Shown: in pieces, positions 1 to 50,666 of the stretch
Position numbering within the stretch: position 1 is the first letter of the stretch
Layout: every line of letters starts with the position of its first letter
Assembly: GCA_965219415.1 (NCBI GenBank)
Contig: CBDCNP010000002.1
Coordinates: 4,288,001-4,352,000, forward strand
Length of the DNA stretch: 64,000 bases
Source: Candidatus Marinacidobacterales bacterium
Lineage (GTDB): Bacteria > Acidobacteriota > Vicinamibacteria > Marinacidobacterales > DATDRI01
Direction of reading: 5' to 3'
Position numbers and translations under genes: made by a program
Notes under the pieces: model-generated
Told to the model about the DNA's origin: nothing
Seen by the model: only the letters and a program-made list of their open reading frames with translations
Databases searched by the model: none

Positions 1-1
1 C

Positions 2-992: not shown

Positions 993-1169
993 GGGTCCGG
1001 CAAGGCTTGAGAGCATCTCGTTCATCATCGCTCCCCGGCTCGTTCTTGATGGCCTTGGACCGGATCATCAGGCGGACCCGTGAGCTCAGTAAGCAGGCCC
1101 TGCCGCGCACGGACGCCGCGACCGAGGTCGGATCCCAGCCTCGGTTGGCGCCCAGCACGACACGCGGGG

Positions 1170-2072: not shown

Positions 2073-2103
2073 GATCTATCCTCCTTCGGTTGTGGGGATC
2101 GCT

Positions 2104-2223
2104 GGTATTGTCAAGTTGAGGCATTCAGGGCTGACCCGACCCCAAGATGTTGGCAACGCGGTGCGCTCGAACCCTATTATCTAGAGGCCCGCCCCGAGCT
2201 TGAAACCTCAACTTGACTGTACC
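2104..2223. mobile_element. 120-bp MITE with 18-bp IS6-like TIRs; empty target of the IS110
   Basis: GGTATTGTCAAGTTGAGG ... CCTCAACTTGACTGTACC. Homologous inverted copy at 2520-2629 and remnant at 16627-16659. Confidence 0.8.
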
Positions 2224-2519
2224 GTCTCTGGGGCTATGCCAGCGAACTACACCGCCACATTATAGCTCATCCCTGCTCGAACGCACTTGAGGATTTTCTC
2301 TTGGCGCTTGGGGGTGAGTTTGGTTTTCCGTCCAGCCATGTGTTTTGGGGAATTTTACCAGGGTTGCCTGAAGATATGATGAAATTGACGCAATAGGTCG
2401 CGGTTGGCCTTCTCCCCACGCGCGAAACAGGCGTAGAATGTGGCTTATTGACGCCTGCGACCTGCCCAGCTTCCTTATTACTTATTCCAGCCCGAACGCA
2501 CTCCAGGATGGTTTTTGGG
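2224..2519 (-). pseudogene. Degraded tandem phage-type HTH fragments
   Basis: Minus strand gives ILECVRAGISNKEAGQVAGVNK and MAGRKTKLTPKRQEKILKCVRAGMSYNVAV*FAGI (similar repeats, internal stop). Confidence 0.4.
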
Positions 2520-2639
2520 GTTGCTGTCAAGTTGAGGTCTCGAGCTCGGAGCGGGCCGCTAGATAATGGGGCTCGAGCGTACCGCGTTGCCAACATCTTG
2601 GGGTCCGGTCGGTCCCGAATGCCTCAACTAATAAGAAAC

Positions 2640-3878
2640 TCAGGGTGTAGCGTTGGCAAGAGGTGTGAGAGTGACGTCAAAACCGAGCTCCCTTAGGCGT
2701 CGTGTCATTCGTATTGTGAGCTGTTCCTTGTCGCGTTGATGGAAGTAATCGGCACCCAGTTCCCGGTATGGAATCTCATTGTGGAGCATGTAGTAGACGG
2801 CGGTGATGATGGAGGCGGCGACGGCGACGACAGCTTTCTTGGGGCCCCGACGAGACTTGAGCCGGAAGAACTGGGCACGCAGATAGCTGTCGCGCTTGCG
2901 GCTTGCCGCCCAAGCGGCTTGGACAAGAGCGGTCTTGAGCCATGGAGCCCCTTTGCGGGTTTTCTGAGAAAAGCGTTTACCGGCACTCTCATGAAGCCGT
3001 GGGCATAGACCGGCCCAAGAGCGAAGGTGTCCGGCCGTTGGGAATGCCGAGACATCGGGTCCGATCTCGGCGACGAGAATGGCCGCCGTGGCTTCACTGA
3101 TGCCCGGGATCGTCACCAGAAGCTCGACGGCCGATCGAAAAGGGCGCAGGCTCTCTGTGATACGGGATTCGAGCGCGCTCACTGAGGCTTCAAGCTGCTC
3201 GATATGATGGAGATGAAAACCCAACAGGAAACGATGATGGTCGGTAACGTAGCCCTCGAGCGCTGCGCTCAATTCCTGTTCAGTGGCTTTGAGTCGGCTC
3301 GAGCCCAGCTCACTCAGCTTGTGAGGGTCGCTTTCTCCCGCAATGATCGCTCGGAGAATCGCCCGCCCGCTTACTCCCAAAATCGTGCTAATCACGCTCG
3401 TCAATTTGATGTTCGCGTCTTCCAACGTCTTTTGAATTCGCTGGGTCTCCCGAGCGATTTCTCGAACGAACTGCTTTCGCGTTCGGGTCAGCTCTCGCAG
3501 TTCCTGGATCGGCGTTGGCGGAACGAAGCTAGCTCGAATGAGACCATGGGCAAGCAAATCCGCTATCCACAAGGCATCACTGATATCGCTCTTACGACCC
3601 GGCATGTTCTTGACGTGGGCCGGTTGTGCCAACACCAACTCAAAATGACCTTCGAGCACATGCCACACCGGCTTCCAATACACTCCGGTCGCTTCCATCG
3701 CTACAATCGTGCAACCGCACTGCCCCAGCCAATCCAACATTTCCAGCAATTCGCTCGTGGCCGTGCCGAACACACGCGTCTCGCGCACCACCTTCCGCTT
3801 CGACGCTACCCGCACGCAAGCCGTAATCGATTTCTGGTGGACGTCCAATCCGGCGCATCGCTTATGAACCACTCTCAT
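2640..3878 (-). CDS. IS110-family DEDD recombinase/transposase, apparently intact
   Basis: CAGLDVH, AMEATG and KSDISDA (DEDD); TIPGIS; HESAGK serine motif. ATG at 3878 follows AAGGAGG. Confidence 0.95.
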   Translation of the reverse strand: MRVVHKRCAGLDVHQKSITACVRVASKRKVVRETRVFGTATSELLEMLDWLGQCGCTIVAMEATGVYWKPVWHVLEGHFELVLAQPAHVKNMPGRKSDISDALWIADLLAHGLIRASFVPPTPIQELRELTRTRKQFVREIARETQRIQKTLEDANIKLTSVISTILGVSGRAILRAIIAGESDPHKLSELGSSRLKATEQELSAALEGYVTDHHRFLLGFHLHHIEQLEASVSALESRITESLRPFRSAVELLVTIPGISEATAAILVAEIGPDVSAFPTAGHLRSWAGLCPRLHESAGKRFSQKTRKGAPWLKTALVQAAWAASRKRDSYLRAQFFRLKSRRGPKKAVVAVAASIITAVYYMLHNEIPYRELGADYFHQRDKEQLTIRMTRRLRELGFDVTLTPLANATP

Positions 3879-4107
3879 CGCAGCCTCCTTCACGTCGCAC
3901 CGGCGTGGAGCCCACGAACTTGTAATCTAATAGACGCGCTCAACTATCCCAGCTGGAATAGAAAACGCAATTTGGGGTACGCGCAGGACTCCCAGCCAAA
4001 CTTGACAACGGGCTCAGTCGCACCAACGTTAAGCCGAGCTCTGAGCCGGTGCCACCTTCACAGACTACCGCGTTTCATTTATTCGGGGTGACCGCCAGGC
4101 CGTGGAA
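3879..4107 (-). ncRNA. Candidate IS110 bridge RNA region (left non-coding end), copy 1
   Basis: About 230 nt, conserved in three copies, with several stems and target/donor-matching segments. Position is as known for IS110-group bridge RNAs. Confidence 0.65.
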
Positions 4108-4124
4108 AACTTGACAGTACCGTA

Positions 4125-4268
4125 GTGCACTATCACACAGAACGGAACCACCAAGGTCTCGGCAACGAGCTCATCACACCTCTGCCGGCAAGCGCGAATG
4201 ACGCTGGCCCCATCGTGTCGCGAGAGCGACTCGGGGGCATTCTCAACTACTACTACCGTGCCGCGTAG
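4125..4268 (+). pseudogene. C-terminal fragment of rve-type transposase
   Basis: VHYHTERNHQGLGNELI...RERLGGILNYYYRAA*, similar to the C-terminus of 11312..11962. Confidence 0.75.
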
Positions 4269-4336
4269 ATTGTCGCCGGCGACGGTAGCCCCTCGGTGGG
4301 CTCGACCGACGTAGCGTGGAAACAGCTTCAGGAACA

Positions 4337-4776
4337 ACTCCGGTCGCTTCCATCGCTACAATCGTGCAACCGCACTGCCCCAGCCAATCCAACATTTCCA
4401 GCAATTCGCTCGTGGCCGTGTCGAACACACGCGTCTCGCGCACCACCTTCCGCTTCGACGCTACCCGCACGCAAGCCGTAATCGATTTTTGGTGGACGTC
4501 CAATCCGGCGCATCGCTTATGAACCACTCTCATCGCAGCCTCCTTCACGTCGCACCGGCGTGGAGCCCACGAACTTGTAATCTAATAGACGCGCTCAACT
4601 ATCCCAGCTGGAATAGAAAACGCAATTTGGGGTACGCGCAGGACTCCCAGCCAAACTTGACAACGGGCTCAGTCGCACCAACGTTAAGCCGACCTCTGAG
4701 CCGGTGCCACCTTCACAGACTACCGCGTTTCATTTATTCGGGGTGACCGCCAGGCCGTGGAAAACTTGACAGTACC
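4337..4776 (-). mobile_element. IS110 copy 3: left end plus 5' part of transposase, same target junction
   Basis: Near-identical to 3682-4121, including AAAACT|TGACAGTACC. Confidence 0.9.
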
Positions 4777-4779
4777 GTC

Positions 4780-4945
4780 GGTGCTTGCGCTGTTTACTGT
4801 TGGTAATATGTACGCATCCCTTTGCAAAAGGGGCGCTTACGCTCCATTTAGCGTGCAGCGAAGGTCGTAAGCGCTATTTTGGCTGTAATTTAATGCACCG
4901 TAAAGTCTTAGCGTCATCTCACCAACACTTAATGGCGGAAGCACC
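4780..4945. mobile_element. 166-bp IS1-type MITE, copy 1
   Basis: GGTGCTTGCGC ... GCGGAAGCACC termini match the IS1 at 49214-50413; seven copies in the window. Confidence 0.85.
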
Positions 4946-5039
4946 GGGTCGCTTGCGCCTGACCGATGCGAAACGTCCCGTCGCACCAGTCTCAAGTCCG
5001 TTTGTGTTTTTGGACACGAGGGGATGACGAGGTGGTCGG

Positions 5040-5906
5040 ATGATCAAGGTGGTGAGCTGGAACATCGGCAAGCGCAAGAAGCCGTGGCGCCAACTGGTGC
5101 AGATGGCTCGCGAAGGTGACGCGGATTTGGCGCTCTTGCAGGAAGCGGGAAGCCCACCCGGAGACTTGGTGCACTGGATCGAATACATGGACAAGGTGTT
5201 CTGGAACCGGCAACTATACGACCGCTGGCCGTTGGTCGTGAAGCTGTCCGATCGAATCACCGTCGAGCCGTACCGCCAAGTCCCGCCGACCAACGAACTC
5301 GGTGAGGATACGATTGGTGTCAGTGGCATCGGCACCATCGCCGCCAGTAGGGTGATCCCGTGCGACAACGAGGAAGAGGCTTTTGTGGCAGTGTCGATGT
5401 ACGCACGCTGGTTGCATCCTCATCCGTCTACCAGGAGCAGTTGGGGTGTCGGTTACTCGGATGCCTCAGCCCATCGGATCATTTCGGACCTGTCCGCGTT
5501 CATAGGTCATTCCGACCCTACGAAGCACAGGATCCTGGCTGCGGGTGATCTGAACATGTTCTACGGGGCAGTCGGTTCCAGGTTGTCGCTGCCGGAACGT
5601 GACCGCACGGTGTGGGATCGGATGCAGGCGCTCGGGCTGGAGTTCCTGGGTCCGCAGGCGCCGCACGGTCGGCGCGCACGAACTGCGCCAGACGACGTAC
5701 CGCCGACCACGAGGAACGTGCCGACCTACTACCGCCCGGGAACCGAACCGGAAACCGCGGTGAATCAATTGGACTACGCGTTCGCGTCGCGCGGGTTCCA
5801 CGAGAAGGTCTCAGTGCTGGCGATGAACGAGATTGAGGAGTGGGGCCCGAGCGATCACTGCCGTCTGATGATCGAGGTAAATGTGAAAGGCCACAACAAG
5901 AGTTGA
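5040..5906 (+). CDS. Endonuclease/exonuclease/phosphatase (EEP) family protein
   Basis: VVSWNI, LLQE, GDLN, LDY and SDH motifs; GAGG RBS. Confidence 0.9.
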   Translation: MIKVVSWNIGKRKKPWRQLVQMAREGDADLALLQEAGSPPGDLVHWIEYMDKVFWNRQLYDRWPLVVKLSDRITVEPYRQVPPTNELGEDTIGVSGIGTIAASRVIPCDNEEEAFVAVSMYARWLHPHPSTRSSWGVGYSDASAHRIISDLSAFIGHSDPTKHRILAAGDLNMFYGAVGSRLSLPERDRTVWDRMQALGLEFLGPQAPHGRRARTAPDDVPPTTRNVPTYYRPGTEPETAVNQLDYAFASRGFHEKVSVLAMNEIEEWGPSDHCRLMIEVNVKGHNKS

Positions 5907-6502
5907 CTTCCCTCGACTGGACCGCCGTACTAGCCACGAGGGATCACGCGCCGCGACGGACGGCCATGATCCGAAAAAAAGATCGCGTATTGATGAGCAA
6001 ACAGCGTCGTGTCCGAAAATACAAACGGAGCCCGAAAGCTCGAATCCTAGAGGCTTTCTCGAAATTCGCGGAGACCAACCGGGTTCCCAAGCATGCGCGG
6101 GGATGAACTCCGCATACCTCGTAGGGCAAGCCGGCGCGAGAGAAGGAAAGAAGAAAGGGATGAAGATCGAGCCAACAGAGCCGAACGAGTTCATCAATGA
6201 CCTGGTGCTGCTAAGTTTCATTGTGTTGGGGATTTTCGCGTTCTACTACGTGAGCGCTTGCGTGTTTTGATGTTATGTTTCCAATGAAGTGAAGCGTCCT
6301 CCCGCAAAGCTGATCTTTTCGAGAACCCGGTTCTCCTCGAGCACGTAGACGATAGTGGACTGTTGGTCACGCTGGACTCGACCAGCAATGGCGACGACCA
6401 ACTATGTCAAGGACTGGATCGGCGTGCGAAGACCGAGGATTCTAGCTTCCATCGGCCAACCAAACCTAGATATCTCTATTCCGAAACGTCACGGCGCGAC
6501 GG

Positions 6503-6739
6503 CGTCGTGTCCAAGAATACGAACGGAGCCGGAAAGCTCGAATCCTAGAGGCGTTCTCGAAATTTGTGGAAACCCGCCGACGCGGCACTGGCTCTGCTAA
6601 GGACTGCCGACGTATTCTTCTGCCTCGGTCAACGCGTTCCCGAGCCCTTGATGGTTGCGCTCTCTGTAATAATGATGAATGAACTCAGCGACGGCCCGGC
6701 GCGCCGGTCTTGAGTTCGTTTGTATTCTTGGACACGACG
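6503..6739. mobile_element. 237-bp miniature of rve lineage C
   Basis: TIR CGTCGTGTCCAAGAATAC at both ends; internal RNHQGLGN transposase remnant on the minus strand. Confidence 0.8.
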
Positions 6740-6885
6740 GAGTTTTTGGGTTTGCCAAAAAGATGTTACGCCATTCTTATTTCCACGGGAATCGGGACAG
6801 ATCCTATTTTGCGGATCACAACCAGAGGTGCCACCCTAGTATGGCTGACCGACAGAACTAATTTTGGCAGAACCAGGAGAACAAG

Positions 6886-7320
6886 ATGGCAAGACTAACG
6901 ATAAGCTCCTATAGAAAACCCGCGGTGATCATAAGTCGAAGCGCCGTTGCACGAGACCACCTCGTCTATATTGCCGTCGCTAACAAGCCCATGAGGTACA
7001 GATATGGGCGCTCCAGAATCGTCTATATCGGTACGACTAGAGCAGGCGCCTCACGGATCGCGCAGAGTGCCGCTGGTAAGGCCAATCATATGCTGGCTCT
7101 TCACGGGGTAACTCACCTCCAGTTTTATGTTGTTTCGTGTCCGCGACGGCAACGTGTTCAAACGTGGAAAAAACTGGAGCGTGGGCTACTTCTTTGCTTT
7201 CGTGAGCAATTCGGCGAAGTGCCCGAGTGCAACACGCAGGGAAGGCGAATGAAATGGCGAGATGAGCTCAAGTACTTTACAGAACGCCGCATGCGATCCG
7301 TCATCTTCAAGTACTCTTGA
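6886..7320 (+). CDS. Stand-alone GIY-YIG-like nuclease
   Basis: LVYI...IVYIGTT...R, LERGLL and a terminal CN; AGGAG RBS. Confidence 0.65.
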   Translation: MARLTISSYRKPAVIISRSAVARDHLVYIAVANKPMRYRYGRSRIVYIGTTRAGASRIAQSAAGKANHMLALHGVTHLQFYVVSCPRRQRVQTWKKLERGLLLCFREQFGEVPECNTQGRRMKWRDELKYFTERRMRSVIFKYS

Positions 7321-7336
7321 GATTGGATCGTCTGAT

Positions 7337-7490
7337 ATGAGTGAAGAAATCGCCCTTGTCGGTATCGATTGCGCGACCCAGCCATCCAATGTCGGACTTG
7401 CGCTCGGCGTTTGGCGTCTCGGCTCTCTAGAAATTCGCGAACTGGGAAACAGAGAACATTCTCCCCAAGAAACAATAACCCACTGGTTGA
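7337..7490 (+). pseudogene. DUF429-like (RNase H-fold) protein N-terminus, truncated
   Basis: MSEEIALVGIDCATQPSNVGLA; cut by IS256 sequence at 7491. Confidence 0.55.
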
Positions 7491-7629
7491 ATCAGCGTAC
7501 CCGTACTGGTCGCGCTCGGGGTCGCGCCAGACGGGCAGAAACGTCTGTTGTCATTGCGTCTGGCGGTGAGCGAAGCCTCGACGCATTGGGGCTCCGTGCT
7601 GGAGGGACTCCAGGCTCGAGGACTCCGGG
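7491..7629 (+). mobile_element. Internal IS256 fragment
   Basis: Near-identical to about 45346-45485. Confidence 0.85.
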
Positions 7630-7849
7630 CTTTATTAGGGAAGAGAAGAAGAAGGAAGAATCAAACTAGTTGCTCTCGGACCGCCCAAGAGTAGCCGCCA
7701 CCGACGAGAACAGACATGGGATGCCCCCCGGGTCTAGTGTCGGCGTGAGCGCTGGCGCTCTACTTCCTCCAGATCTTTGCGCTGGTCTTCTGCACTGCCC
7801 AGAAACGTTGCCCGAACCGCCTTCATGTTCCACTTTTCCTTAGGCTCCA

Positions 7850-8295
7850 GTCTCATTCCGTCGAGGAGCCCACCCTAAGCCCGGCGCGCAAGGCTGCGCT
7901 TCGACGTAGGTGGGCGGATCTTATCCGTCGGGTGTACGAAGTCGACCCTCTGCTTTGTGAGCGCTGCGGTGGCCAGCTCCGAGTGATCGGCTTCATCACC
8001 GAGCCTCGTGTCATAGGAAAGATTCTTGAGCATCTCGAAAAGCGAGACCGACATTCACGAGCTCCACCTCCTGCTCAGCCGGTCTCGGTATCTTGAGCCC
8101 CTCCCCCGGCGCTCCATCGACTCTCTTCGTGTGTCTAGACGAGCAGAGCCTGCCCGCAAGCCCTCGAGCACACCACCAGCTTTCCCTCTTCAACTCGAGA
8201 TGCTATTCTTCCCCTTCCAAAGGAGGGGAGAACGCACCTACGGGGGTGAAAAGCACCGGTATCGGAGGAGCACCCGCGGGTCAAAATCCCTATCC
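7850..8295 (+). mobile_element. IS91/ISCR-like 3' remnant with oriIS-like end
   Basis: RRRWADLIRRVYEVDPLLCERCGGQLRVIGFITEP..KILEHL..RAPP*, followed by AAAATCCCTATCC at 8283-8295. Confidence 0.7.
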
Positions 8296-8306
8296 TTTGG
8301 TAGACC

Positions 8307-9521
8307 ATGGATCATCGAAGTGGACTCAAACTCGCGGACATCCGCAACCTCGCCGACCCCGCGGAGCTCTACGGGAGGTTGCGCCAGGATCCGGTTTCCT
8401 GGTCAAAGGAGTTCGACGGATGGTTTCTATCCCGATACGTCGACGTCAAGAACGCCTTGCTCGAGGCTTCTTTGAGCAACGAGAGAATCTCTCACCTAAA
8501 GGACGAGCTTCCCGGAATGGAAGACCTGCTGAAGGACTACGCCCGGGTCCTTCGTGGCGCCATGTTCATGGCCGATCCTCCGATCCACACCCGGTTAAGA
8601 AAATTAACTCGGGGAGGGTTTACACACGCTTCCGTCGAGCACTGGCGGTCGGTCATTCAAGGTGTTGTCGATTCTTGTCTGGACAAGGTGCAAAGCGCGG
8701 GGCGGATGGATATCGTGGCCGACTTCGCCGATCCCATCCCATCGATCTTCATGGCCGAGCTCTTCGACATCTCCGCCGGAGATCGAGATGAATTCTTCCA
8801 ATGGTCGATCGACCTAGCCGCTTTCTTCGGCTCGCCTTTAGGCGACGTCAAAGAAAAGGCGCGTCTAGCCAATGAAGGTACTCGCAAACTCGAAGAATAC
8901 TTCCTTGAGCTCATCGACCGGCGCCATCGGAAGCCAGGGGAAGACCTCGTTAGCTTCTTCATTCAAAAGCAAGAGGAGGGAACTTTGAGCGAGGCCGAGG
9001 TGAGTGCTCAGTGTGTAGCTCTGCTGGCGGCGGGAACTATTACCACTGCCGACCAACTCAGCAACAGCATCGATGCCCTTCTCCGAAACCCGGATCAACT
9101 TAAACGATTGCAGCAGGTCCCGGGTCTCATCGTGGGAGCGGTCCAAGAGACACTGCGCTACGAGCCCGCCTCTCCGTTTATCTACAAGCTGGCTACCGAC
9201 GACTTCACCCTGGCCGGCCAAGAAATCCACAAAGGCCAGCGAGTTTTCCTGTGCTTCGGTCCAGCCAACCGGGATCCGGAGATGTTTCCCGAACCCGATC
9301 GCCTGGACATCGAGCGGTCGAACAGCCGGCAGCATCTCGCCTTCGGATCGGGCCCCCACTGGTGCCTCGGCGCAGACCTGGCCAGCGTTGAGATAGAAAT
9401 TGCGCTGGGGACATTGTTGAGGCGCCTGCCCCAACTGCGATTCGACGAGACTCGACCCGCGACACGCCGCTGGGAAAGCTTGACGTTCCGCGGCTTCTCA
9501 GAGCTATCCGTTGTTTTCTGA
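8307..9521 (+). CDS. Cytochrome P450
   Basis: DPPIHTRLR, ETLRY (ExxR), ANRDP and heme motif FGSGPHWCLG. Confidence 0.95.
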   Translation: MDHRSGLKLADIRNLADPAELYGRLRQDPVSWSKEFDGWFLSRYVDVKNALLEASLSNERISHLKDELPGMEDLLKDYARVLRGAMFMADPPIHTRLRKLTRGGFTHASVEHWRSVIQGVVDSCLDKVQSAGRMDIVADFADPIPSIFMAELFDISAGDRDEFFQWSIDLAAFFGSPLGDVKEKARLANEGTRKLEEYFLELIDRRHRKPGEDLVSFFIQKQEEGTLSEAEVSAQCVALLAAGTITTADQLSNSIDALLRNPDQLKRLQQVPGLIVGAVQETLRYEPASPFIYKLATDDFTLAGQEIHKGQRVFLCFGPANRDPEMFPEPDRLDIERSNSRQHLAFGSGPHWCLGADLASVEIEIALGTLLRRLPQLRFDETRPATRRWESLTFRGFSELSVVF

Positions 9522-9541
9522 ATATAAGGAGGAGGTGCGCC

Positions 9542-10339
9542 ATGGCGAAGACGGTCACTCCTGATGGCGTCCAGATCGACTACGTGAGCAGAGGACAGGG
9601 TAAGCCCATCTTCTTCGTTCACGGGTGGTTTTGCAGCCAGCGCGTCTGGGACTGTCAGTTCCACGCTCTGCAAGACCGATACCGCTCGGTCGCTCTCGAC
9701 CTCCGCGGCATGGGCCAGTCGGAGAAAGCGGACTGCAAGTACACGTTCGAGGAGTTCGCCTCGGACGTTCGCCACGTCATTAAGGAGCTTGGGCTCAAGG
9801 AGGTGACGCTGGTGGGTTGGTCGATGGGCGTCAGCGTCTCGCTTGCGTATATGGAGAACTACCAGGACGACGGGGACGTGGCCCGGGTCGTGCTCATCAA
9901 CGGCCCGATCAAACTGATCAGCTCGCCGGGTTGGGACTTCGGTATCGAGGAAAAAGAGTGCATGGGCTATATCAATGGATTGGCCAACGAGTCCATTAAC
10001 GGGCGCAGAAGTTTTGCCGCGGCGAATCTCTACAAGCCGACGGAGGCCGAGATCGATTTCCTCTTCAACTTATCGCTGCAGACGCCCCTCGACATCGGAC
10101 TCAAGGCGGCTTACAACCAGATGGAGCTGGATCAGCGCTCGGTCTTGAAGTCCTTGAAGGTTCCATGCCTCGCCATGCAAAGCGACCACGACTTCTACCC
10201 GGTGGGGCTGGGGCATTACATCTCCGAGACTGTCCCTAAAGGACACGTGAAGATCTTCGAGGACAGTGGGCATGCCCTTCCGTTTCAAGACACCGCTCGG
10301 TTCAACGAGGCTCTCATCGAGTTCATCGAGTCCACTTAG
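9542..10339 (+). CDS. Alpha/beta hydrolase (arylesterase/perhydrolase-like)
   Basis: FVHGW, DLRGMGQS, GWSMG nucleophile elbow, SGH; AGGAGG RBS. Confidence 0.9.
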   Translation: MAKTVTPDGVQIDYVSRGQGKPIFFVHGWFCSQRVWDCQFHALQDRYRSVALDLRGMGQSEKADCKYTFEEFASDVRHVIKELGLKEVTLVGWSMGVSVSLAYMENYQDDGDVARVVLINGPIKLISSPGWDFGIEEKECMGYINGLANESINGRRSFAAANLYKPTEAEIDFLFNLSLQTPLDIGLKAAYNQMELDQRSVLKSLKVPCLAMQSDHDFYPVGLGHYISETVPKGHVKIFEDSGHALPFQDTARFNEALIEFIEST

Positions 10340-10372
10340 TCGTACGAAAGCTTCGCAGGAAGGAGCAAGGAG

Positions 10373-10690
10373 ATGATCAGAATCTCGGTCCTCTATCCTC
10401 ACGAGTCGGGTGCGCGATTCGACCATCAGTACTACTCGACGACCCACGTCCAACTGATCAAGGAGAAGCTCGGGCCCGCCGGTTTGGTGCGCGTGGAGAT
10501 CGACCGCGGGGTTGCGGGAGAATCGGAAGGAGCACCGGCACCGTATACCGCCGTCGGACACCTGGTGTTCGAGTCGCTCGAGGCCTTCGGTTCGGCCATG
10601 GCCGCTCACGGGGAGGCGCTGGCCGCCGATATGCCGAACTACACGGACCTCAAACCGTCGGTTCAGATTAGCGAGATCCTCCACAGCTAG
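10373..10690 (+). CDS. EthD family protein
   Basis: SVLYP...FDHQYY...H...DMPNYTD..P..QISE pattern; AAGGAG RBS. Confidence 0.85.
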   Translation: MIRISVLYPHESGARFDHQYYSTTHVQLIKEKLGPAGLVRVEIDRGVAGESEGAPAPYTAVGHLVFESLEAFGSAMAAHGEALAADMPNYTDLKPSVQISEILHS

Positions 10691-10702
10691 AGCGACTCGG
10701 AG

Positions 10703-11162
10703 TCATCTCCAACTCAGGGTGTCGTAGCGTTCGCCGGCTTTCATCACCAAGTGGATCTTGTGCCAGGCCCAGCGCTTTTCGAGCGGGTTGGCTTCGAGAG
10801 AGATGATGTCGGCCAACTTCCCAGGCTCCAAGGTACCCAGGTCGTCCCCTATGCCGATGTTCTGGGCGCCGACCGCGGTGCCAGCACGGATGGCATCCAT
10901 CGGCGTGAAACCGCCCTCGATCAAGAACTCGATGGCGTTTCCGATGCCGCCGATGTAGAGCGGATCCATCCCCAGGCTTACCGGGATACCAGCTTTGAAG
11001 GCGGCCAAGACCTGAGTCTGTTGTGTCCGGATGGAAGGGGAAAAATCGCGTCCCCGGCGATTCTCGTCGAAGTCATCGTAGGGACGATCTTCGGTCTCGA
11101 CTTCGGGGTGGGCCTTCCGATGCTCGAAGTATTGTTTCTTCTCGAAGTCGATCCATTCTCCT
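10703..11162 (-). pseudogene. Amidohydrolase 3' fragment, paralogue of 20835-22262
   Basis: Near-identical C-terminal protein sequence; 5' part replaced by the IS at 11163. Confidence 0.85.
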
Positions 11163-12485
11163 CGTATTGTGCCAAAACCCGATCGGCCGACTTTATCAAT
11201 ATTAAGCCGCGCCCGCGGGGCTTTGAACCGAACGCGGTGATTCGGGGCAGATCGAACTTCGATGCGGGACGTCCGTGCTCAGAACCCAGTGGAAACGATA
11301 TCCCGGTCCGCTTACGCTGCCTCTCGATAGTAATACCGGAGCGTTCCGCCGAGCCGCTCCCGACATTCGATGCGACCGTCGGACCGGCAGGATTCCCGCG
11401 ATGGCGTGATGAGTTCGTTATCAAGACCTTGGTGATTCCTCTCCAGATGATAATGGGCGACGAAAGCGCGAATACTCGCGCGGAGGTGATTCTCTCCCAG
11501 AGGTATCATGCGGCTAAGGCACTCACTCTTGATGGATCTAACAAAACGTTCGGCGTAGGCGTTCAGATCCGGGCTTCTCGCCGGCAGCTTCACCGTCTCC
11601 ACATCGACGCCACGAAGTGTCGCGCGGAATGATGCTGAGAACAACGGGTCGCGGTCATGGATGAGAAAGCGAGTGTCTCGAAGAAAGCCATCAATCGCGT
11701 CCGTCAGGTTTCGCGCTATTTGCGTCATCCAGTCGTCGTAGGGCTGATTAGTGATGCCTGCGATCTCGACGCGGCGCGTCTTGAGGTCGATAACGAAGAG
11801 CACGAAGTAGCGAATCAGCCCGCTGCTGGTTAGCACCTCAACCGTGAAGAAATCGGTCGCCGCGATGGCTCCCCAATGAGCTTTCAAAAACGTACCCCAT
11901 GGGATTCGCTTGCGGCGCTCCGGTGCAGACTCGATTCCGTGCTCCGCGAGGATGCGCTTCACCGTGTTTCGGCCGACGTCGTGGCCCAGGTTAACGAAGA
12001 GCGCCGCAAATCCTTGTATAGCCCCAGGTTGAATTTTGGGTTGCCATCCTGACGACGAGCTCGCGTATCGTTTCTGCCACGCGAGGCGGTCCCGGACCGC
12101 GGCGCTTGCTCCCGTCGTACTTCTTCGCGATCAGCCGTGTGTACCAGCGCAACAGTGTGTCGGGCGTGACCAGGCCTGCAACCTCCTTCAGCCCATCCCT
12201 GCCCAACGCTCTCGCTTTCGCCGCAAGACGCCGCCGCTGCTCATCGGTGAAACGCAGTCGGCGTCCACCCAATTGTTCCCGGAGAACGCGATTCTCTTCC
12301 TTCAGGTATTCGATCGCATCCTGTTGGAACCGGTTGACCCAGCCGGCGAGGGTCACGACGAGCAACTGCCAAAGGTGAGGCTGCATGGACCGGATTCTAC
12401 CGGCTCTCGGTGCTGGCATCGCCGCGGCCCACAAGGGCCTACTAATACTCGATATCCGGAGTCGGCCGAGTTTTGGCACAGTACG
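11163..12485 (-). mobile_element. rve/DDE IS (lineage G), full length with frameshifted transposase (11312-12386)
   Basis: TIRs CGTA(T/C)TGTGCCAAAAC; ATDFF/HDRD/AERFVRSIKSE. One extra T near 11992 breaks GALRNLGH. Confidence 0.85.
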
Positions 12486-12501
12486 CGGGCCGATCATCAC
12501 C

Positions 12502-12682
12502 TGTGCCTTCTATTTATTCATCCGGGCGCCCCGAACTTGATTAGTCTCCGGTCTGTCGGCACCATACCTGCTTGATTTCGTCGTTTGTTCGTGCTCTCAT
12601 CTCCGCCTTCAAGGCTCATCGCGAGCTGGCTCTCGACGAGCCTTGAAGGCAGAGATGAGAGAGCGAACAAACTACAAAATCA
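12502..12682. mobile_element. Lineage E end with head-to-head inverted duplication
   Basis: TGTGCCTTCTATTT at 12502; arms 12573-12625 and 12630-12682 are imperfect reverse complements. Confidence 0.75.
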
Positions 12683-13467
12683 TGATGAATCGAGATGCTT
12701 GGGACCCGGAACAATATGGACGCTTTCGACGCGAGCGAAAACAACCCTTCTTCGATCTATTGGCTCTTGTTCGTCCCAAATCCAGAATGCGCATCGTGGA
12801 CCTGGGATGCGGTCCGGGGGAGTTGACGGACGAGCTACACCGACGGCTGAGCGCTCACGAAGCGCTTGGGATCGATATCTCGGAGGCCATGCTTCGAGAA
12901 GCCGATGGTCGGGAAGGCGAGGGGCTAAGTTTTCGACAACAGGACATAGCCGATTTCGCCGATTCGTCCGAAGGGGCTGCCTATGACTTGGTCTTCTCGA
13001 ACGCCGCCCTGCAATGGGTTCCCGATCACCGAGAACTGATTTCGAGGCTCACCGAAGCGCTGGCCGAGGACGGGCAGCTTGCGATACAGGTGCCCGCAAA
13101 CTTCGACCACGTCTCTCACGAGACCGCCAGTGAGATTGCGGGGGGAATCGCCCTTCCGGGAAGCACTCGGGGGCTTCACTCATCCGCTATTCGTTCTTCA
13201 GCCGGAGGCCTATGCGTCTCTTCTCGACGAACTCCGCTACCGAGAGCAGCACGTCAGGCTTCAGGTCTACTCCCACCGGCTCGGATCGAGAGAAGAGGTG
13301 GTGGAGTGCTCAAGGGCTCGCTACTTACACTCTACGAAAGCCGGCTGACCGGTGAGCTATTCGAGCGTTTTATCGCGAGCTACCGTGATCGGTTGCTGCC
13401 CCGGTTGCGCGATGGGCGGCCGTTCTTCTTTACTTTCAAGCGTATCTTGATCTGGGCGGCACGCTGA
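12682..13467 (+). pseudogene. tam: Trans-aconitate 2-methyltransferase-like, two compensating frameshifts
   Basis: WDPEQYGRF..ER.QPFFDLL, DLGCGPG, FSNAALQWVPDH. The native-looking middle part lies in the frame of ORF 13079..13348. Confidence 0.75.
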
Positions 13468-13572
13468 ACAGAACCCGTCGCGTCCGAAAATTCGGTGCTT
13501 CCGCCATCAAGTGTTGCTACGCGGCTGCGGGCAGTGGTACAGGTGCGGAAGAGACCGGGTTGCGCGCCCTAC

Positions 13573-13816
13573 GGTGCTTCCGCCATCAAGTGTTGCTACG
13601 CCGTGTTTGAATGCTAATGTCAGCTGGCCTGCCTGTGTCGGCGAACGCCATTAATGAGGATGTCGGCGTGCACACGAAGGTGTCCCTGAATGTCAGGCAC
13701 CGTGTGGTCAGCCCAGCCCGCATCGCCGAAAGAACTGCGTCTCCCGAAATCAGGCTCAAACTCTAGCACACGAGCGGGTTACGCGGCAGCCACCAACACT
13801 TGATTGCGGAAGCACC
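13573..13816. mobile_element. ~245-bp IS1-type MITE
   Basis: Both IS1 termini; inverted homologue at 28949-29194. Confidence 0.8.
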
Positions 13817-14370
13817 ACGCAACGATTGACCGTGTGTTCAAAGAATACGAGCAGTATCTGCGGGACTGGCCGTCCGTCGTTAATCGGCACAGGCGGAGCT
13901 TGAAGCTGACATTCGTGCTGGACAACGCGGGCACAGCACCAGCCGATAGCGTGCATGTACGGTTCTGGACAGAAGCCGATGGCGTATGGCTGGAGGAACT
14001 GCCCGACGTGCCGCAACTGCCCGCGATGCCCAAGAGGCGCGGCCCGTTCGACCTGGGCTTTGACTTTCGGGCGCCGCTGTACAACGCAACCCATCTGCCC
14101 CAGCTCGACCGCGACATGGAAGGCCCCACCATTACGGACGACGAACCGAAGCAGGTCAAGTTCTGGATGAAACGCGTGATGCATCATTTACCGGTGAAAC
14201 TGCCAGCGGTGCATTTTCAGTTCCGCGCGGATGAGAGTGTCAAGTCATTCGGCATTAACTATCAGTTGGTCGCGGCGAACATCCGGAAACCTAAGACGAA
14301 CGTTCTCCACGTGAAGCTGTCAATGGCCGCGCCCATGGCGCCGCCGCTGCCGGGCAGCGAAGCGGACTAG
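13817..14370 (+). pseudogene. 5'-truncated hypothetical protein
   Basis: Long open, protein-like frame starting directly at the MITE end. Confidence 0.5.
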
Positions 14371-15132
14371 TAGGTAGGGTGTGCGCCGCAGCGGTCATTC
14401 CAACTGACGCATGACAAAACAACTCCAGCGCTTCTTTCCATTCGGCCTCTTTCGATTGCACGAATATGGCGATCGCGCTCCTGCATGGCGGTGTTCGAAT
14501 TCTGACTGAGCGTAGCGTTTCGTTGCGGCGGAATCACCACGCGCGTCCTTCGTCCTGGGCTGTGCGCTTCGATGGCTTCGTAGACCGCTTCCTTGTCGTA
14601 TGCACTGTCCGCCACCACCGACGCTAGAGGTGCTTGAATCTGTGTTAGCAAAGGGGGGACTCGCGTTGCGTCGCGAGCTCGTGACGCCGTCAGTTCCGAC
14701 GCAACAATGTTGCCGGTCTTGCGATCAACGGCGATGTGCAACTTGCGCCAGGCGCGCTGCTTTGGCGGTTTGCGGGCGGTTCCAACATGAATCCTCAAGC
14801 CCGTGCTATCGAGCATTAGGTGGATTGATTGCTTGCTTGCGGCTTTCCCAATCCGCCGCTTCTTGCAGAGCAGCCTCGACCGCCGACACCACGTCGAGTA
14901 GTCCGGGAGCTCGATACACAGCCGGAGAAGCGAGGCGATCGAGTGCAAGAAACCCTCGGTTTGGCGGTAGGCAAGCTTGTACACCATCCGGACAACCAAG
15001 CCCGTTTCAATCGCCATCTCTGAATAGACCCGTTGACCGCCAGGCTTACCGCTCTTGTCGGCCTTCCAGTTCGCGATTGCCTCCTCGTCAAACCAGACCT
15101 TCAAATCGCCCCGGCGGCGCAGCCCTTCGTTG
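14367..15132 (-). pseudogene. IS5-family (IS903 group) transposase, truncated at both ends
   Basis: NEGLRRRGDLKVWF, PDYST, LDSTGL, WRKLH, ADSAYD. N-terminus cut by the MITE TIR at 15133. Confidence 0.85.
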
Positions 15133-15146
15133 GGTACTGTCAAGTT

Positions 15147-15375
15147 TTTCACGGCCTGACGGCCACCCCGAATGAATGAAACGCGGTAGTCTCTGTAGGT
15201 GGCACCGGCTCAGAGGTCGGCTCAACGTTGGTGCGACTGAGCCCGTTGTCAAGTTTGGCTGGGAGTCCTGCGCGTACCCCAAATGGCGTTTTCTATTCCA
15301 GCTGGGATAGTTGAGCGCGTCTATTAGATTACAAGTTCGTGGGCTCCACGCCGGTGCGACGTGAAGGAGGCTGCG
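15147..15375 (+). ncRNA. Candidate IS110 bridge RNA region, copy 2
   Basis: Target-like TGTCAAGTT at 15247-15255 and donor-like TATTAG at 15322-15327. Stems GCACCGGC/GCCGGTGC, GGCTCAG/CTGAGCC and CTATTCCA/TGGGATAG. Confidence 0.65.
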
Positions 15376-16614
15376 ATGAGAGTGGTTCATAAGCGATGCG
15401 CCGGATTGGACGTCCACCAGAAATCGATTACGGCTTGCGTGCGGGTTGCGTTGAAGCGGAAGGTGGTACGCGAGACGCGTGTGTTCGGTACAGCCACGAG
15501 CGAATTGCTGGAAATGGCGGATTGGCTGGGGCAGAGCGGTTGCACGATTGTAGCGATGAAAGCGACCGGAGTGTATTGGAAGCCGGTGTGGCATGTGCTC
15601 GAAGGTCATTTCGAGTTGGTGTTGGCACAACCGGCCCACATCAAGAACATGCCGGGTCGTAAGAGCGATATCAGTGATGCCTTCTGGATAGCGGATTTGC
15701 TTGCCCATGGTCTCATTCGTGCTAGCTTCGTTCCGCCAACACCGATCCAGGAACTGCGAGAGCTGACCCGAACGCGAAAGCAGTTCGTTCGAGAAATCGC
15801 TCGGGAGACCCAACGGATTCAAAAGACGTTGGAAGATGCGAACATCAAATTGACGAGCGTGATGAGCAGCATTTTAGGAGTAAGCGGGCGAGCGATTATC
15901 CGAGGGATCATTGCGGGAGAAAGCGACCCTCACAAGCTGAGCGAGCTTGGCTCGAGCCGACTCAAAGCCACTGAACAGGAATTGAGCGCAGCGCTCGAGG
16001 GCCACGTTACCGACCATCATCGTTTCCTGTTGGGTTTTCATCTCCATCACATCGAGCAGCTTGAAGCCTCAGTGAGCGCGCTCGAGTCCCGTATCACAGA
16101 GAGCCTGCGCCCTTTTCGACCGGCCGTCGAGCTTCTGGTGACGATCCCGGGCATCAGTGAAGCCACGGCGGCCATTCTCGTCGCCGAGATCGGACCCGAT
16201 GTGTCGGCTTTCCCAACCGCCGGACACCTTCGCTCTTGGGCCGGTCTGTGCCCACGGCTTCATGAAAGTGCCGGTAAACGCTTTTCTCAGAAAACCCGCA
16301 AAGGCGCTCCATGGCTCAAGACCGCTCTTGTCCAAGCCGCTTGGGCGGCAAGCCGCAAGCGCGACAGCTATCTGCGTGCCCAGTTCTTCCGGCTTAAGTC
16401 TCGTCGCGGCCCCAAGAAAGCTGTGGTCGCCGTCGCCGCCTCCATCATCACTGCCGTCTACTACATGCTCCACAACGAGATTCCATACCGGGAACTGGGT
16501 GCCGATTACTTCCATCAACGCGACAAAGACCAGCTCACAAAACGAATGACACGACGCCTGAGGGAGCTCGGTTTTGACGTCACTCTCACACCTCTTGCCA
16601 ACGCTACACCCTGA
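15376..16614 (+). CDS. IS110 recombinase, full length, catalytic E changed to K
   Basis: AMKATG in place of the AMEATG seen in copies 1 and 3. Confidence 0.9.
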   Translation: MRVVHKRCAGLDVHQKSITACVRVALKRKVVRETRVFGTATSELLEMADWLGQSGCTIVAMKATGVYWKPVWHVLEGHFELVLAQPAHIKNMPGRKSDISDAFWIADLLAHGLIRASFVPPTPIQELRELTRTRKQFVREIARETQRIQKTLEDANIKLTSVMSSILGVSGRAIIRGIIAGESDPHKLSELGSSRLKATEQELSAALEGHVTDHHRFLLGFHLHHIEQLEASVSALESRITESLRPFRPAVELLVTIPGISEATAAILVAEIGPDVSAFPTAGHLRSWAGLCPRLHESAGKRFSQKTRKGAPWLKTALVQAAWAASRKRDSYLRAQFFRLKSRRGPKKAVVAVAASIITAVYYMLHNEIPYRELGADYFHQRDKDQLTKRMTRRLRELGFDVTLTPLANATP

Positions 16615-16943
16615 GTTTCTTATTAGTTGAGGCATTCAGCGCCGATCCGACCCCAAGATGGTATTGGTCAACAGCCCGACGATAGACCTTCACATGGCGG
16701 CTCTTGTCGAAGTCTCGACGGTCGACTGTGAAGCCCCTCAGAATGTTGATGCAATCGTCCATGTGCTGCATCAGGCCCTGGACCCACGAGATGATGGGCC
16801 GAGAAGCTATCGAGTACACGCGGGGCAAGGAAGTTGCGGATGCGCTAGACACCTTCCTAGCCGAGTACGACAAGACCACGACATCTAGTGAGCGGTCCAA
16901 CCAAGAGATATAGTAGCGTAAAATCGCATGATGGAGACGTTGC

Positions 16944-18197: not shown

Positions 18198-18445
18198 TAA
18201 GCGCGACGCCCGTCCGTGTCCGAAAACGCGAACGGAGCCGAAATCTCGAACCCTAGAGGCGTTCTCGAAATTCGCGGAGACCAGCCGACGCGGCACTGGC
18301 TCTGCGATAGGCGCGCCCGAGCAGAGCTCTCCTCCAGACCATCTGTTCCGTCCAACTGGTGCGCCCGAACTCCTATGCAGCGTCGCGGTGGTAGTAACGG
18401 AGCAAGCCCGCCCAATCACTTACGACTGTGAGCATGATAGTGGGG

Positions 18446-18558
18446 TAAGTTACAGCCAAAATAGCGCTCGTGACCTTCGCTGCGCGCTAAATGGAGCGTA
18501 AGCGCTTCTTTTGCAAAGGGATGCGTACACATCACCAACAGTAAACAGCGCAAGCACC
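18446..18558. mobile_element. 166-bp IS1-type MITE, partial copy; a lineage D left end follows to about 18637
   Basis: Matches part of the other copies. Confidence 0.75.
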
Positions 18559-50634: not shown

Positions 50635-50666
50635 GGTGCTGTCAAGTTTTTCACGGCCTGACGGCC
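50635..50666 (+). mobile_element. IS110 left-end remnant in the same TIR target (copy 4)
   Basis: GGTGCTGTCA|AGTTTTTCACGGCCTGACGGCC, cut by lineage D at 50667. Confidence 0.8.

What the first reader, a model, noticed from the sequence alone, without database searches (positions are those of the whole stretch)
2104..16659. IS110 recombinase that targets the terminal inverted repeat of a 120-bp IS6-like MITE
Seen: all four IS110 left junctions (4108-4121, 4763-4776, 15133-15146, 50635-50648) read GGT(A/G)CTGTCA|AGTT, with unrelated sequence further out. Both right junctions (2621-2629, 16625-16634) continue AGTTGAGGCATTC into the MITE body. An empty MITE at 2104-2223 supplies the pre-insertion site, so target = GGTACTGTCA-AG-TTGAGG and predicted circle-junction donor = TTCTTATT-AG-TTTT(T/C)CAC. 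Known: IS621 targets REP repeats via a bridge RNA, and IS4321/IS5075 target Tn21 TIRs. Inference: this is a bridge-recombinase system with an AG(TT) core whose target is a non-autonomous element. I cannot tell whether this pairing has been described.
Basis: partly seen in the sequence, partly recalled or inferred. Interest (0 to 1): 0.85.

Follow-up and report, generated by a model that had tools for sequence, protein, structure and literature searches.

The report
IS110 element that targets IS6 ends
An RNA-guided IS110-family insertion sequence in an acidobacterial genome inserts specifically into the terminal repeat of another transposon (an IS6-family element and its miniature derivatives); this is a new example of a known kind of behaviour.

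Summary
In the window, all four left junctions and both right junctions read as described. In the whole genome, 18 of 18 IS110 left ends follow GGNNNTGTCAAG. In eight related genomes plus this one, 26 of 28 distinct left junctions carry TGTCAAG exactly and 2 carry one mismatch.

The target is the terminal inverted repeat of an 806-bp IS6-family element (NCBIfam IS6 equivalog, 212.7 bits) and of its 119-120-bp MITEs. Right flanks continue into at least five different such elements, so the insertions were independent.

The 216-nt left end holds segments that match the target. One is identical to the left target (UUGUCAAG). One is complementary to the right target (CUCAAC). A third is identical to the element's own right end (UCUAUUAG). 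The first and third covary with the flanks across 49 related loci. The second covaries weakly.

The guide order differs from IS621, and the right-donor guide was not found.

This is a new member of a known kind; IS4321/IS5075 in Tn21 ends is the precedent. Guide-less 145-bp mini-IS110 derivatives, and an excess of solo left ends, are side findings.

The parts
2104..2223 (+). Empty 120-bp MITE (type A) with IS6-type terminal inverted repeats. It supplies the uninterrupted target GGTATTGTCA-AG-TTGAGG.
2515..2629 (-). Body and far repeat of a second type-A MITE. It forms the right flank of IS110 copy 1. The AG core copy is at 2628-2629.
   Evidence: It aligns with the empty MITE from AGTTGAGG to the far end.
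2630..4109 (-). IS110-family element, copy 1 (1480 bp without the core). The ORF is 2640-3893 (417 aa from GTG; the likely ATG is at 3878). The left end is 3894-4109. Guide segments: RTG 4028-4033, LTG 4001-4008, LDG 3927-3934.
   Evidence: (96.35% identity to copy 2).
4110..4121 (-). Outer 12 bp of the MITE repeat (GGTACTGTCAAG), split off by copy 1.
4337..4776 (-). Relic: IS110 left end nt 1-428 (4337-4764) plus the outer 12 bp of a repeat (4765-4776). It is cut off by the end of another repeat that has 46 copies starting at the junction.
15133..15144 (+). Outer 12 bp of an IS6-type repeat (GGTACTGTCAAG), forming the left flank of copy 2. Metagenome contigs break or diverge exactly at 15132/15133.
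15145..16626 (+). IS110-family element, copy 2 (15145-16624 plus the AG core at 16625-16626). The ORF is 15361-16614 (likely ATG at 15376).
15145..15375 (+). Non-coding left end with the predicted bridge RNA. RTG CUCAAC is at 15221-15226. LTG UUGUCAAG is at 15246-15253, followed by UU. The donor-loop stem is 15262-15268 paired with 15341-15347. LDG UCUAUUAG is at 15320-15327.
16627..16659 (+). Truncated MITE-A remnant (TTGAGGCATTCAG...), forming the right flank of copy 2. Contigs from other samples diverge at 16660.
50635..50666 (+). Relic: the outer 12 bp of a repeat (GGTGCTGTCAAG) plus IS110 left end nt 1-20.

Best explanation
This is a site-specific IS110-family insertion sequence of 1482 bp including one AG core. 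It encodes a DEDD recombinase of about 412-417 aa.

The element recognises its insertion site through an RNA encoded in its 216-231-nt left end. One RNA segment (UUGUCAAG, left-end nt 102-109) has the sequence of the top strand left of the insertion point, so it would pair with the bottom strand. A second segment (CUCAAC, nt 77-82; CUUAAC in copy 1) is complementary to the top strand just right of the insertion point (G-TTGAG). A third segment (UCUAUUAG, nt 176-183) has the sequence of the element's own right end, so it would hold the donor.

Recombination takes place at an AG dinucleotide shared by donor (..TTCTTATT-AG-TTTTCCAC..) and target (..TGTCA-AG-TTGAG..). The roughly 13-bp target lies 10-12 bp inside the terminal inverted repeat of an 806-bp IS6-family element and of its 119-120-bp MITEs. 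The IS110 element therefore lands in, and splits, the ends of another transposon family.

Shown here: the junction anatomy, the identity of the target elements, the independence of the insertions, covariation of the LTG and LDG segments with their flanks, and a conserved covarying stem. Inferred: that the RNA is made, that it is what guides the recombinase, that a circle is the intermediate, and that insertion disables the IS6 or MITE end.
For: Junctions:
- 18 of 18 left ends in this genome follow the motif. Across 9 genomes, 26 of 28 distinct left junctions match exactly.
- Empty sites read continuously across the insertion point.
- In this genome 5 of the 6 right flanks continue into four different IS6-type elements: MITE-A (twice), MITE-B, a short MITE, and the IS6 end next to the transposase start. 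The sixth (TTAAGCAG...) was not identified. In relatives, flanks also include the other IS6 end, an IS6 variant and the opposite end of MITE-A.

The target element:
- It matches the IS6 equivalog NF033587 at 212.7 bits (cut-off 125) and PF13610.
- There are 7 complete 806-bp copies and 6 complete MITEs.

The recombinase:
- PF01548 and PF02371; NF033542 at 280 bits.
- It is a distant homologue of the IS621 transposase, E = 7.7e-10.

The guides:
- In an unbiased column-by-position scan of 49 related loci, left-target positions covary with left-end columns 103-107 (35-42 of 49 identical, z 6.6-8.2). Left-donor positions covary with columns 177-180 (29-48 of 49 identical, z 5.7-11.5).
- The right-target complement exceeds permuted pairings: 4.125 against 3.72 +/- 0.13, with 3 of 2000 permutations reaching it. 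In a fixed register it is 2.66 against 2.32 +/- 0.13, with 49 of 5000.
- In this element the match is 6 of 6.

Structure and strand:
- The stem 118-124/197-203 is paired in 98% of cells of 51 sequences. Double-sided changes occur at 5 of 7 pairs. Slid controls give 37-62%.
- In that stem, G-U cells (17) outnumber A-C cells (3), which fits transcription of the sense strand.

Core:
- Only AG is shared by the left and right junctions of relatives.
- Tandem RE-AG-LE junctions exist in nature.
Against: - No RNA evidence exists. No RNA run holds the locus, and Rfam has no matching family.
- The simple sigma-70 scan finds no promoter in the left end or at a natural RE-LE junction.
- No right-donor guide was found. 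The variable positions of the left-end start covary with no other column.
- The support for the right-target guide is modest, and many relatives pair at only 1-3 of 5 positions in the fixed register.
- The guide order (top-strand guide 5' of bottom-strand guide) is opposite to the one solved for IS621 (PMC11208158, passages read). The IS621 mechanism therefore cannot simply be transferred.
- The covariation z-scores come from related sequences and overstate independence.
- No empty-site or circle-junction contig was seen for the window's own copies.
- Only two intact copies exist against 12 truncated relics, so current activity is unproven.
Confidence: 0.85

Rival explanations
1. There was a single ancestral insertion of the IS110 element into one MITE. 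The MITE::IS110 composite was then spread by the IS6 transposase acting on the MITE ends. On this view the constant flanks reflect hitch-hiking, not IS110 site specificity.
For: Copy 1 sits in a MITE that still has both ends (2515-4121), so it is a possible composite. IS6-family transposases are present in 7 copies.
Against: Right flanks belong to at least five different elements, not one MITE. The mini derivative sits in four different hosts. No composite is flanked by a duplication. The left-end guide segments match the flanks and covary with them in relatives that have quite different targets.
Confidence: 0.05
2. The 12 bp on the left and TTGAG on the right are the true ends of the IS110 element. 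The so-called MITEs would then be its own deletion derivatives.
For: The motif is present at every left junction. Deletion derivatives of the IS110 element do exist (the 145-bp minis).
Against: The same repeat bounds an 806-bp element with its own IS6 DDE transposase, at both ends and in inverted orientation. 25 places read GGNNNTGTCAAG followed by TTG[A/G].., as in empty repeat ends, with no IS110 sequence. The minis keep the IS110 ends proper and are themselves flanked by the split repeat. The outer bases vary in step with the host element.
Confidence: 0.02
3. Site choice is made by the recombinase protein, or by a structural feature of the repeat. The matches in the left end would then be incidental or regulatory, for example antisense control, and not guides.
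For: No RNA has been shown. No right-donor guide was found. A 2026 preprint abstract (10.64898/2026.03.19.712850, search listing only) reports structure-dependent target recognition, in addition to base pairing, for another IS110 element.
Against: Position-by-position covariation of left-end columns with left target and left donor across relatives with different targets. Guide use has been established experimentally for family members (PMC11208160 and PMC11187229, passages read).
Confidence: 0.08

Closest known systems
IS621 (E. coli) bridge recombinase and bridge RNA
   Same: DEDD recombinase plus Tnp domain. Long non-coding left end upstream of the gene. A dinucleotide core shared by donor and target. 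An RNA segment identical to left target plus core, another complementary to the right target, and a third identical to the left donor. The natural target is a repeated genomic element.
   Different: Only the C-terminal domain aligns well (E = 7.7e-10). The protein is 412-417 aa against 326 aa. The core is AG, not CT. In the target loop the top-strand guide lies 5' of the bottom-strand guide, and the donor bottom-strand guide lies on the 3' side of its loop. In IS621 the LTG is at nt 50-58 and the RTG at 77-80. No right-donor guide or junction promoter was found. The target is a transposon end, not a REP.
[quoted passage not shown]
   Same: An IS110-superfamily element whose specific target lies inside the terminal inverted repeat of another transposon, in one orientation, so it splits that end. 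My knowledge of these elements rests on the title of Partridge & Hall 2003, seen in reference lists, and on a passage of PMC11187229 stating that the IS4321 target logo was recovered from nearly 900 insertions.
   Different: Those elements belong to the IS1111 group, with subterminal inverted repeats and the non-coding region downstream. Here the non-coding region is upstream, there is no long subterminal repeat, and the target family is IS6 and its MITEs rather than Tn3/Tn21.
REP- and attC-targeting IS110/IS1111 elements (ISPpu9, ISPpu10, ISPa11, ISKpn4, ISPst6)
   Same: Site-specific insertion into a short multi-copy sequence, which supplies many safe landing sites (abstracts and passages).
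   Different: Their targets are host repeats or integron sites, not the ends of an autonomous IS and its MITEs.
IS1111-type seekRNA layout
   Same: The order 'top-strand complement first, bottom-strand match second', as stated for IS1111 seekRNAs (PMC11187229, introduction).
   Different: That RNA lies downstream of the transposase gene. Here it lies upstream, as in the IS110 type.

Membership tests
IS110 family (RNA-guided DEDD transposase) | Recombinase with the DEDD/RuvC-like N-terminal domain and the Transposase_20 C-terminal domain | tested here: met
   PF01548 at 98.1 and 93.9 bits, PF02371 at 83.2 and 83.9 bits. NF033542 at 280.3 bits against a cut-off of 140. IS621 transposase in the PDB, E = 7.7e-10.
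IS110 family (RNA-guided DEDD transposase) | No terminal inverted repeats of its own. Insertion at a specific sequence, with only a short core shared by both junctions. | tested here: met
   The ends TTTTCCAC... and ...TTCTTATT are not inverted repeats. AG is present at both junctions and once in the empty site.
IS110 group (as opposed to the IS1111 group) | The long non-coding region lies upstream of the gene (left end much longer than right end) | tested here: met
   The left end is 216-231 nt. The right end is 10 nt after the stop codon.
Bridge/seek RNA system | Non-coding-end segments that match the left target and the left donor and covary with them among relatives | tested here: met
   Columns 103-107 against the left target (z 6.6-8.2). 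Columns 177-180 against the left donor (z up to 11.5). 49 loci.
Bridge/seek RNA system | [quoted passage not shown] | tested here: inconclusive
   6 of 6 in this element. Across relatives the signal is weak but above permutation: 3 of 2000 and 49 of 5000.
Bridge/seek RNA system | A segment complementary to the right donor | tested here: inconclusive
   No column covaries with the variable positions 3-5 of the left-end start. No convincing complement was seen by eye.
Bridge/seek RNA system | The RNA is transcribed, in IS621 from a promoter rebuilt at the circle junction | not testable with these tools
   No RNA run is listed. No sigma-70-like site was found in the left end or at a natural RE-LE junction. 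The scan is crude and the host is an acidobacterium.
IS621-type bridge RNA architecture | Bottom-strand guide on the 5' side and top-strand guide on the 3' side of each internal loop | tested here: not met
   RTG (nt 77-82) precedes LTG (102-109). LDG (176-183) lies 3' of the inner hairpin, within the stem 118-124/197-203. IS621 positions come from PMC11208158.
IS6/IS26 family (the target element) | A single DDE transposase of the IS6 type in an element of about 0.8 kb with short terminal inverted repeats | tested here: met
   NF033587 at 212.7 bits (cut-off 125) and PF13610 at 129.7 bits. 806 bp, repeats beginning GGTATTGTCAA, 7 complete copies.
IS6/IS26 family (the target element) | 8-bp target-site duplication | tested here: inconclusive
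   0 of 13 complete IS6 or MITE copies have a direct repeat of 3 bp or more. One 8-of-8 match links the ends of two different IS6 copies, against about 0.03 expected by chance. This fits scrambling by recombination between copies.
MITE | Short, non-coding, multi-copy, with the terminal repeats of an autonomous element present in the genome | tested here: met
   119-120 bp, 6 complete copies of two types plus fragments. The first ~17 nt of the repeat are shared with the 806-bp IS6 element.
IS1111 group (IS4321/IS5075-like) | Subterminal inverted repeats of 7-17 bp and the non-coding region downstream of the gene | tested here: not met
   The non-coding region is upstream and only 10 nt lie downstream. 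No long inverted repeat was seen at the ends by reading them.

The most novel reading that the evidence does not exclude
The element may represent a clade of left-end-encoded bridge RNAs whose guide layout is permuted relative to IS621. The top-strand guide precedes the bottom-strand guide in the target loop, and the donor bottom-strand guide sits on the 3' side of its loop. That combines the IS110-type location with the IS1111-type order.

Together with its guide-less 145-bp minis, which would be mobilised in trans, it may act as an RNA-guided hyperparasite that specifically disables the ends of IS6-family elements and their MITEs. This would be a natural transposon-against-transposon system, spread across two families of the order.
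Probability: 0.3. Interest if true: 0.6.

Novelty: new member of a known kind. Interest (0 to 1): 0.4.

Why it matters
The locus adds a clear natural case in which a bridge-RNA recombinase has evolved to land in the terminal repeat of another transposon family, IS6 and its MITEs. Many independent insertions and empty sites allow the target, the core (AG) and three of the four guides to be read off the sequence.

It supplies a non-CT core and a guide layout different from IS621. Both are useful for understanding how far the architecture can vary.

It also supplies natural guide-less mini donors.

Nesting of one mobile element in the ends of another bears on how IS loads are limited in very IS-rich genomes.

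It does not change the known picture of the family.

Tried and rejected
**Negative results**
- Rfam scan of window 1-20000: nothing relevant. The only hit was a snoRNA at E = 0.76, below threshold.
- MFE folds of the single left end and a whole-alignment RNAalifold were uninformative. Sub-region folds gave the two loops. The last sub-fold of that script crashed on an index error.
- Right-donor guide: I searched by covariation and by eye in the 5' side of the donor loop, in the conserved AUGAAAC motif and in GUGG-like words. No assignment survived.
- A closing stem for the target loop, tested in the wrong register, failed with 0-47 of 51 paired. RNAalifold later placed a 4-bp stem. I did not count pairs for it.
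- Sigma-70 promoter scans of the left end and of a natural RE-LE junction: none found.
- Sequencing runs: no RNA holder is listed. The contigs of 4 DNA runs showed no empty-site joint and no circle junction for copy 2. Because contigs drop rare forms, this says nothing either way.
- (fixed-register test) used wrong alignment columns and found only 16 right junctions. Its result is void, and one search replaces it. In one search, 6 of the 51 left-end sequences were dropped before de-duplication to 44 pairs: copy 1, 2 with a tandem left end as right flank, 1 without anchors, and 2 too short. Some further tandem cases were not caught and dilute the score.
- In one search the right junctions of win_c1, L001 and L044 were misdetected and left in.

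**Ideas considered and dropped**
- An immunity idea, that intact IS6 copies escape because one end reads CAAATT (no core G), was considered and dropped. 11 perfect empty targets (TGTCAAG-TTGAG) remain unoccupied.
- The excess of solo left ends (12 relics against 0 solo right ends) was not explained. In 7 of 10 relics examined, the end of another high-copy repeat abuts the break. That does not explain the one-sidedness. A 2026 preprint (10.64898/2026.08.14.744561, passages read) reports asymmetric use of IS110 ends. I could not connect the two.

**Literature**
- Three full-text searches found no paper describing an IS110-family element that targets IS6 or MITE ends.
- Supplementary tables were closed and I did not request them. 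The target logos for ISfinder entries in PMC11187229 and Supplementary Data 2 of PMC11208160 may hold such a case.
- ISfinder itself could not be queried.

Full report
**Where and what.** The window is G000:C3:4288001-4352000 of an 8.05-Mb, 3-contig genome. The closest copies of the element outside this genome lie in a MAG labelled Candidatus Marinacidobacterales (Acidobacteriota, Vicinamibacteria). The genome search places that MAG in the same order as the window's genome: G016 coordinates coincide with L003. The host is therefore probably a member of that order. This is an inference.

**The observation.** I read the window directly.
- IS110 copy 1 occupies 2630-4109 on the minus strand.
- Copy 2 occupies 15145-16624 on the plus strand.
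- Both encode 417-aa ORFs with PF01548 and PF02371 and match NCBIfam 'IS110 family RNA-guided transposase' at 280 bits.
- A 428-nt left-end relic lies at 4337-4764, and a 20-nt relic at 50647-50666.
- All four left ends are preceded by GGT[A/G]CTGTCAAG, with unrelated sequence beyond.
- Both right ends finish ...GTTTCTTATTAG and run on as TTGAGGCATTC.
- The 120-bp element at 2104-2223 reads through the site without interruption. Its body aligns with the right flank of copy 1 to the far repeat. It aligns with the right flank of copy 2 for about 34 nt.

**Genome-wide check.** A BLAST search with copy 2 gives only these two full copies. It gives 16 left ends of 58 nt or more and only 6 right ends. 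A motif search adds two shorter left-end relics. Of 84 matches to GGNNNTGTCAAG, 18 are followed by the IS110 left end and 25 by TTG[A/G].. as in uninterrupted repeats.

Four of the six right ends belong to 145-bp mini elements made of left-end nt 1-68 joined to right-end nt 1405-1481.

Five of the six right flanks continue into four different IS6-type elements:
- the 120-bp MITE (twice);
- a 119-bp MITE of another type;
- a shorter MITE;
- the end of an 806-bp IS.

The sixth right flank, beginning TTAAGCAG, was not identified.

**The target element.** The relaxed motif search and the pairing of ends show 7 complete 806-bp elements bounded by GGTATTGTCAAGTTGACG.. and GGTATTGTCAAATTGAGC.. in inverted orientation. 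Their single ORF matches the IS6 equivalog NF033587 at 212.7 bits (cut-off 125) and PF13610. The MITEs (4 complete of 120 bp, 2 of 119 bp) share about the first 17 nt of that repeat. So 'IS6-like MITE' is right, and the target is the IS6-type end in general.

None of the 13 complete copies has a target duplication. One 8-of-8 match links opposite ends of two different IS6 copies, against about 0.03 expected by chance. This fits an 8-bp duplication later scrambled by recombination between copies. The feature remains inconclusive.

**Relatives.** The recombinase has 519 confirmed relatives among the 590 pattern matches scanned.
- The four 96%-identical copies in the Marinacidobacterales MAG have left flanks ending TGTCAAG.
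- One of them (L002) continues on the right into the 806-bp IS6 end.
- Another (L001) continues into a mini element, giving a natural RE-AG-LE junction.

A DNA search of 40 other genomes of the order finds the left end in 8 of them, spread over 2 of 3 families. In the 30 loci fetched there are 28 distinct left junctions:
- 26 have TGTCAAG exactly;
- 2 are degenerate relics with one mismatch;
- 20 have the full GGNNNTGTCAAG;
- the other 8 have different outer bases.

What is constant is therefore the inner part of the repeat. The 7 right junctions run into an unidentified sequence, an IS6 variant end, the opposite end of MITE-A, MITE-B, TTGACG.. and a deleted end. These are many independent insertions, not one inherited event.

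**The guide RNA.** Upstream regions of 80 related loci plus the two window copies align through the whole left end. Conserved blocks are separated by a few variable stretches. Numbering starts at the first base after the AG.
- Variable stretch 102-109 reads UUGUCAAG here. In each relative it reads the same as that relative's left flank.
- Stretch 176-183 reads UCUAUUAG. It tracks each relative's right end (..GTTTC-NNNNN-TAG).
- An unbiased scan of every alignment column against every flank position in 49 loci picks out exactly these. Left-target positions match columns 103-107 (35-42 of 49 identical, z 6.6-8.2). Left-donor positions match columns 177-180 (29-48 of 49 identical, z 5.7-11.5). 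The sequences are related, so the z-scores overstate independence.
- A third variable stretch, 77-82, is CUCAAC in copy 2 and CUUAAC in copy 1. It is the exact complement of G-TTGAG, the core G plus the right target.
- Across relatives this pairing is weaker. The longest complementary run averages 4.125 against 3.72 +/- 0.13 in permuted pairings, with 3 of 2000 permutations reaching it. In a fixed register it is 2.66 of 5 against 2.32 +/- 0.13, with 49 of 5000.
- I found no right-donor guide.
- A 7-bp stem (118-124 with 197-203) is paired in 98% of cells of 51 sequences. Double-sided changes occur at 5 of 7 pairs, against 37-62% pairing for slid partners. G-U cells (17) far outnumber A-C cells (3), which fits a sense-strand RNA.
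- Sub-region consensus folds place the 77-82 and 102-109 stretches on the 5' and 3' sides of one internal loop. They place 176-183 on the 3' side of a second loop, closed by the covarying stem.

**Core and donor.** In the 58-65% relatives the left junction is always ..AG|TT.. and the right junction is ..TAG| followed by variable bases. Only AG is common to both. The TT after AG in this element's target is part of its right target.

**Comparison with what is known.**
- Passages of PMC11208160 and PMC11208158 define the IS621 scheme. [quoted passage not shown] - PMC11187229 states that in IS1111 seekRNAs the top-strand complement comes first, and in the IS110-type element it studied the order is reversed.
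- The present element has the IS110-type location, upstream, but the top-strand complement comes first.
- Its protein size (412-417 aa) fits the cluster around IS110 itself (395-455 aa, same paper) rather than the IS621/ISEc21 cluster.
- Diverse predicted structures are already acknowledged in the family. I therefore treat the layout as a variant to be confirmed, not as a new kind.
- Targeting the terminal repeat of another transposon has a precedent in IS4321/IS5075 and Tn21-family ends. I know this from the title in reference lists and from one passage on the IS4321 logo.
- Three full-text searches found no report of an IS110-family element aimed at IS6 or MITE ends. Supplements and ISfinder could not be consulted.

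**Other samples.** Twenty coded runs from 10 studies hold part of the stretch, all as contigs and none recorded as RNA. I laid four runs from four studies on 14300-17300.
- Contigs diverge exactly at 15132/15133, the outer end of the repeat, and at 16660, the end of the truncated MITE.
- In two studies a contig joins 15212 to 16549. This is the mini form.
- No contig restores the empty site, and no circle junction was seen. Contigs cannot exclude either.

**Verdict.** It is a bridge-RNA-type IS110 element whose roughly 13-bp target, ..TGTCA-AG-TTGAG.., lies in the terminal repeat of an IS6-family element and its MITEs. It is a new member of a known kind.

Three side observations deserve a specialist's glance: the permuted guide order, the guide-less minis that outnumber full copies in several genomes, and the unexplained excess of solo left ends.

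Still not shown: the RNA itself, the right-donor guide, the circle, and present-day activity.

Noticed in passing
G000 C3:3521504-3521640, 4370105-4370242, 4602945-4603090, 4618567-4618703; L001 right flank; joint 15212->16549 in runs X2 and X8: 145-bp mini derivatives of the IS110 element (left-end nt 1-68 joined to right-end nt 1405-1481). They lack all guide segments and the gene. Each is inserted at the same AG, in a different IS6-type end. In one search, left-end matches that stop at nt 68 are about as numerous as full-length ones, or more so, in several related genomes. They look like non-autonomous donors mobilised in trans.
   Followed up: partly
Whole genome G000; in the window 4337-4776 and 50635-50666: There are 18 left junctions but only 6 right ends. 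12 are solo left-end relics, cut at nt 20 to 785, and there is no solo right-end relic. In 7 of 10 relics examined, the terminus of another high-copy repeat abuts the break. Four of these are the same GGTGCTTCCGC.. end. The one-sidedness is unexplained.
   Followed up: partly
G000 C2:82285; C3:4280467, 4600778, 4682942, 4840896, 5669551: A six-copy repeat ends ..GGGCCGTTTCGTATTAG and is followed each time by ACGTGTCTACGC. The GTTTC-N5-TAG end resembles the right end of this IS110 clade. It may be a second IS110-type element with another target.
   Followed up: no
Window 4785-4950, 18440-18600, 50380-50416, 50700-50750; genome-wide: The repeat load is very heavy. Termini such as GGTGCTTCCGCAATTAAGTG (112 copies begin at the junction tested) and CGTCCTGTGCCAAAACTCGG (217 copies) recur, and elements are nested in one another. 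The left flank of copy 2 (about 14400-15132) is itself a multi-copy element: k-mer depth in metagenome contigs reaches the thousands.
   Followed up: no
G000 C3: 7 IS6 copies and 6 MITEs; C3:3101431 and C3:4760914: No complete IS6 or MITE copy has a target-site duplication. However, the 8 bp outside one end of the IS6 copy at 3.10 Mb equals the 8 bp outside the opposite end of the copy at 4.76 Mb. This suggests rearrangement between copies.
   Followed up: partly
IS6-type repeat, e.g. window 4110-4121 and 2206-2223: Read outward, the repeat contains a perfect TTGACA hexamer (..CAACTTGACAGTACC). This could serve as an outward-facing -35 box, as is known for IS6-family ends (recalled, not tested).
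   Followed up: no
All 7 complete IS6 copies: The end next to the transposase start reads ..GTCAAATTGAGC, with A in place of the core G. The other end reads ..GTCAAGTTGACG or ..GTCAAGTTGGCG. Neither end of an intact copy is a perfect match to both guides, yet 11 perfect empty targets exist in MITEs.
   Followed up: partly
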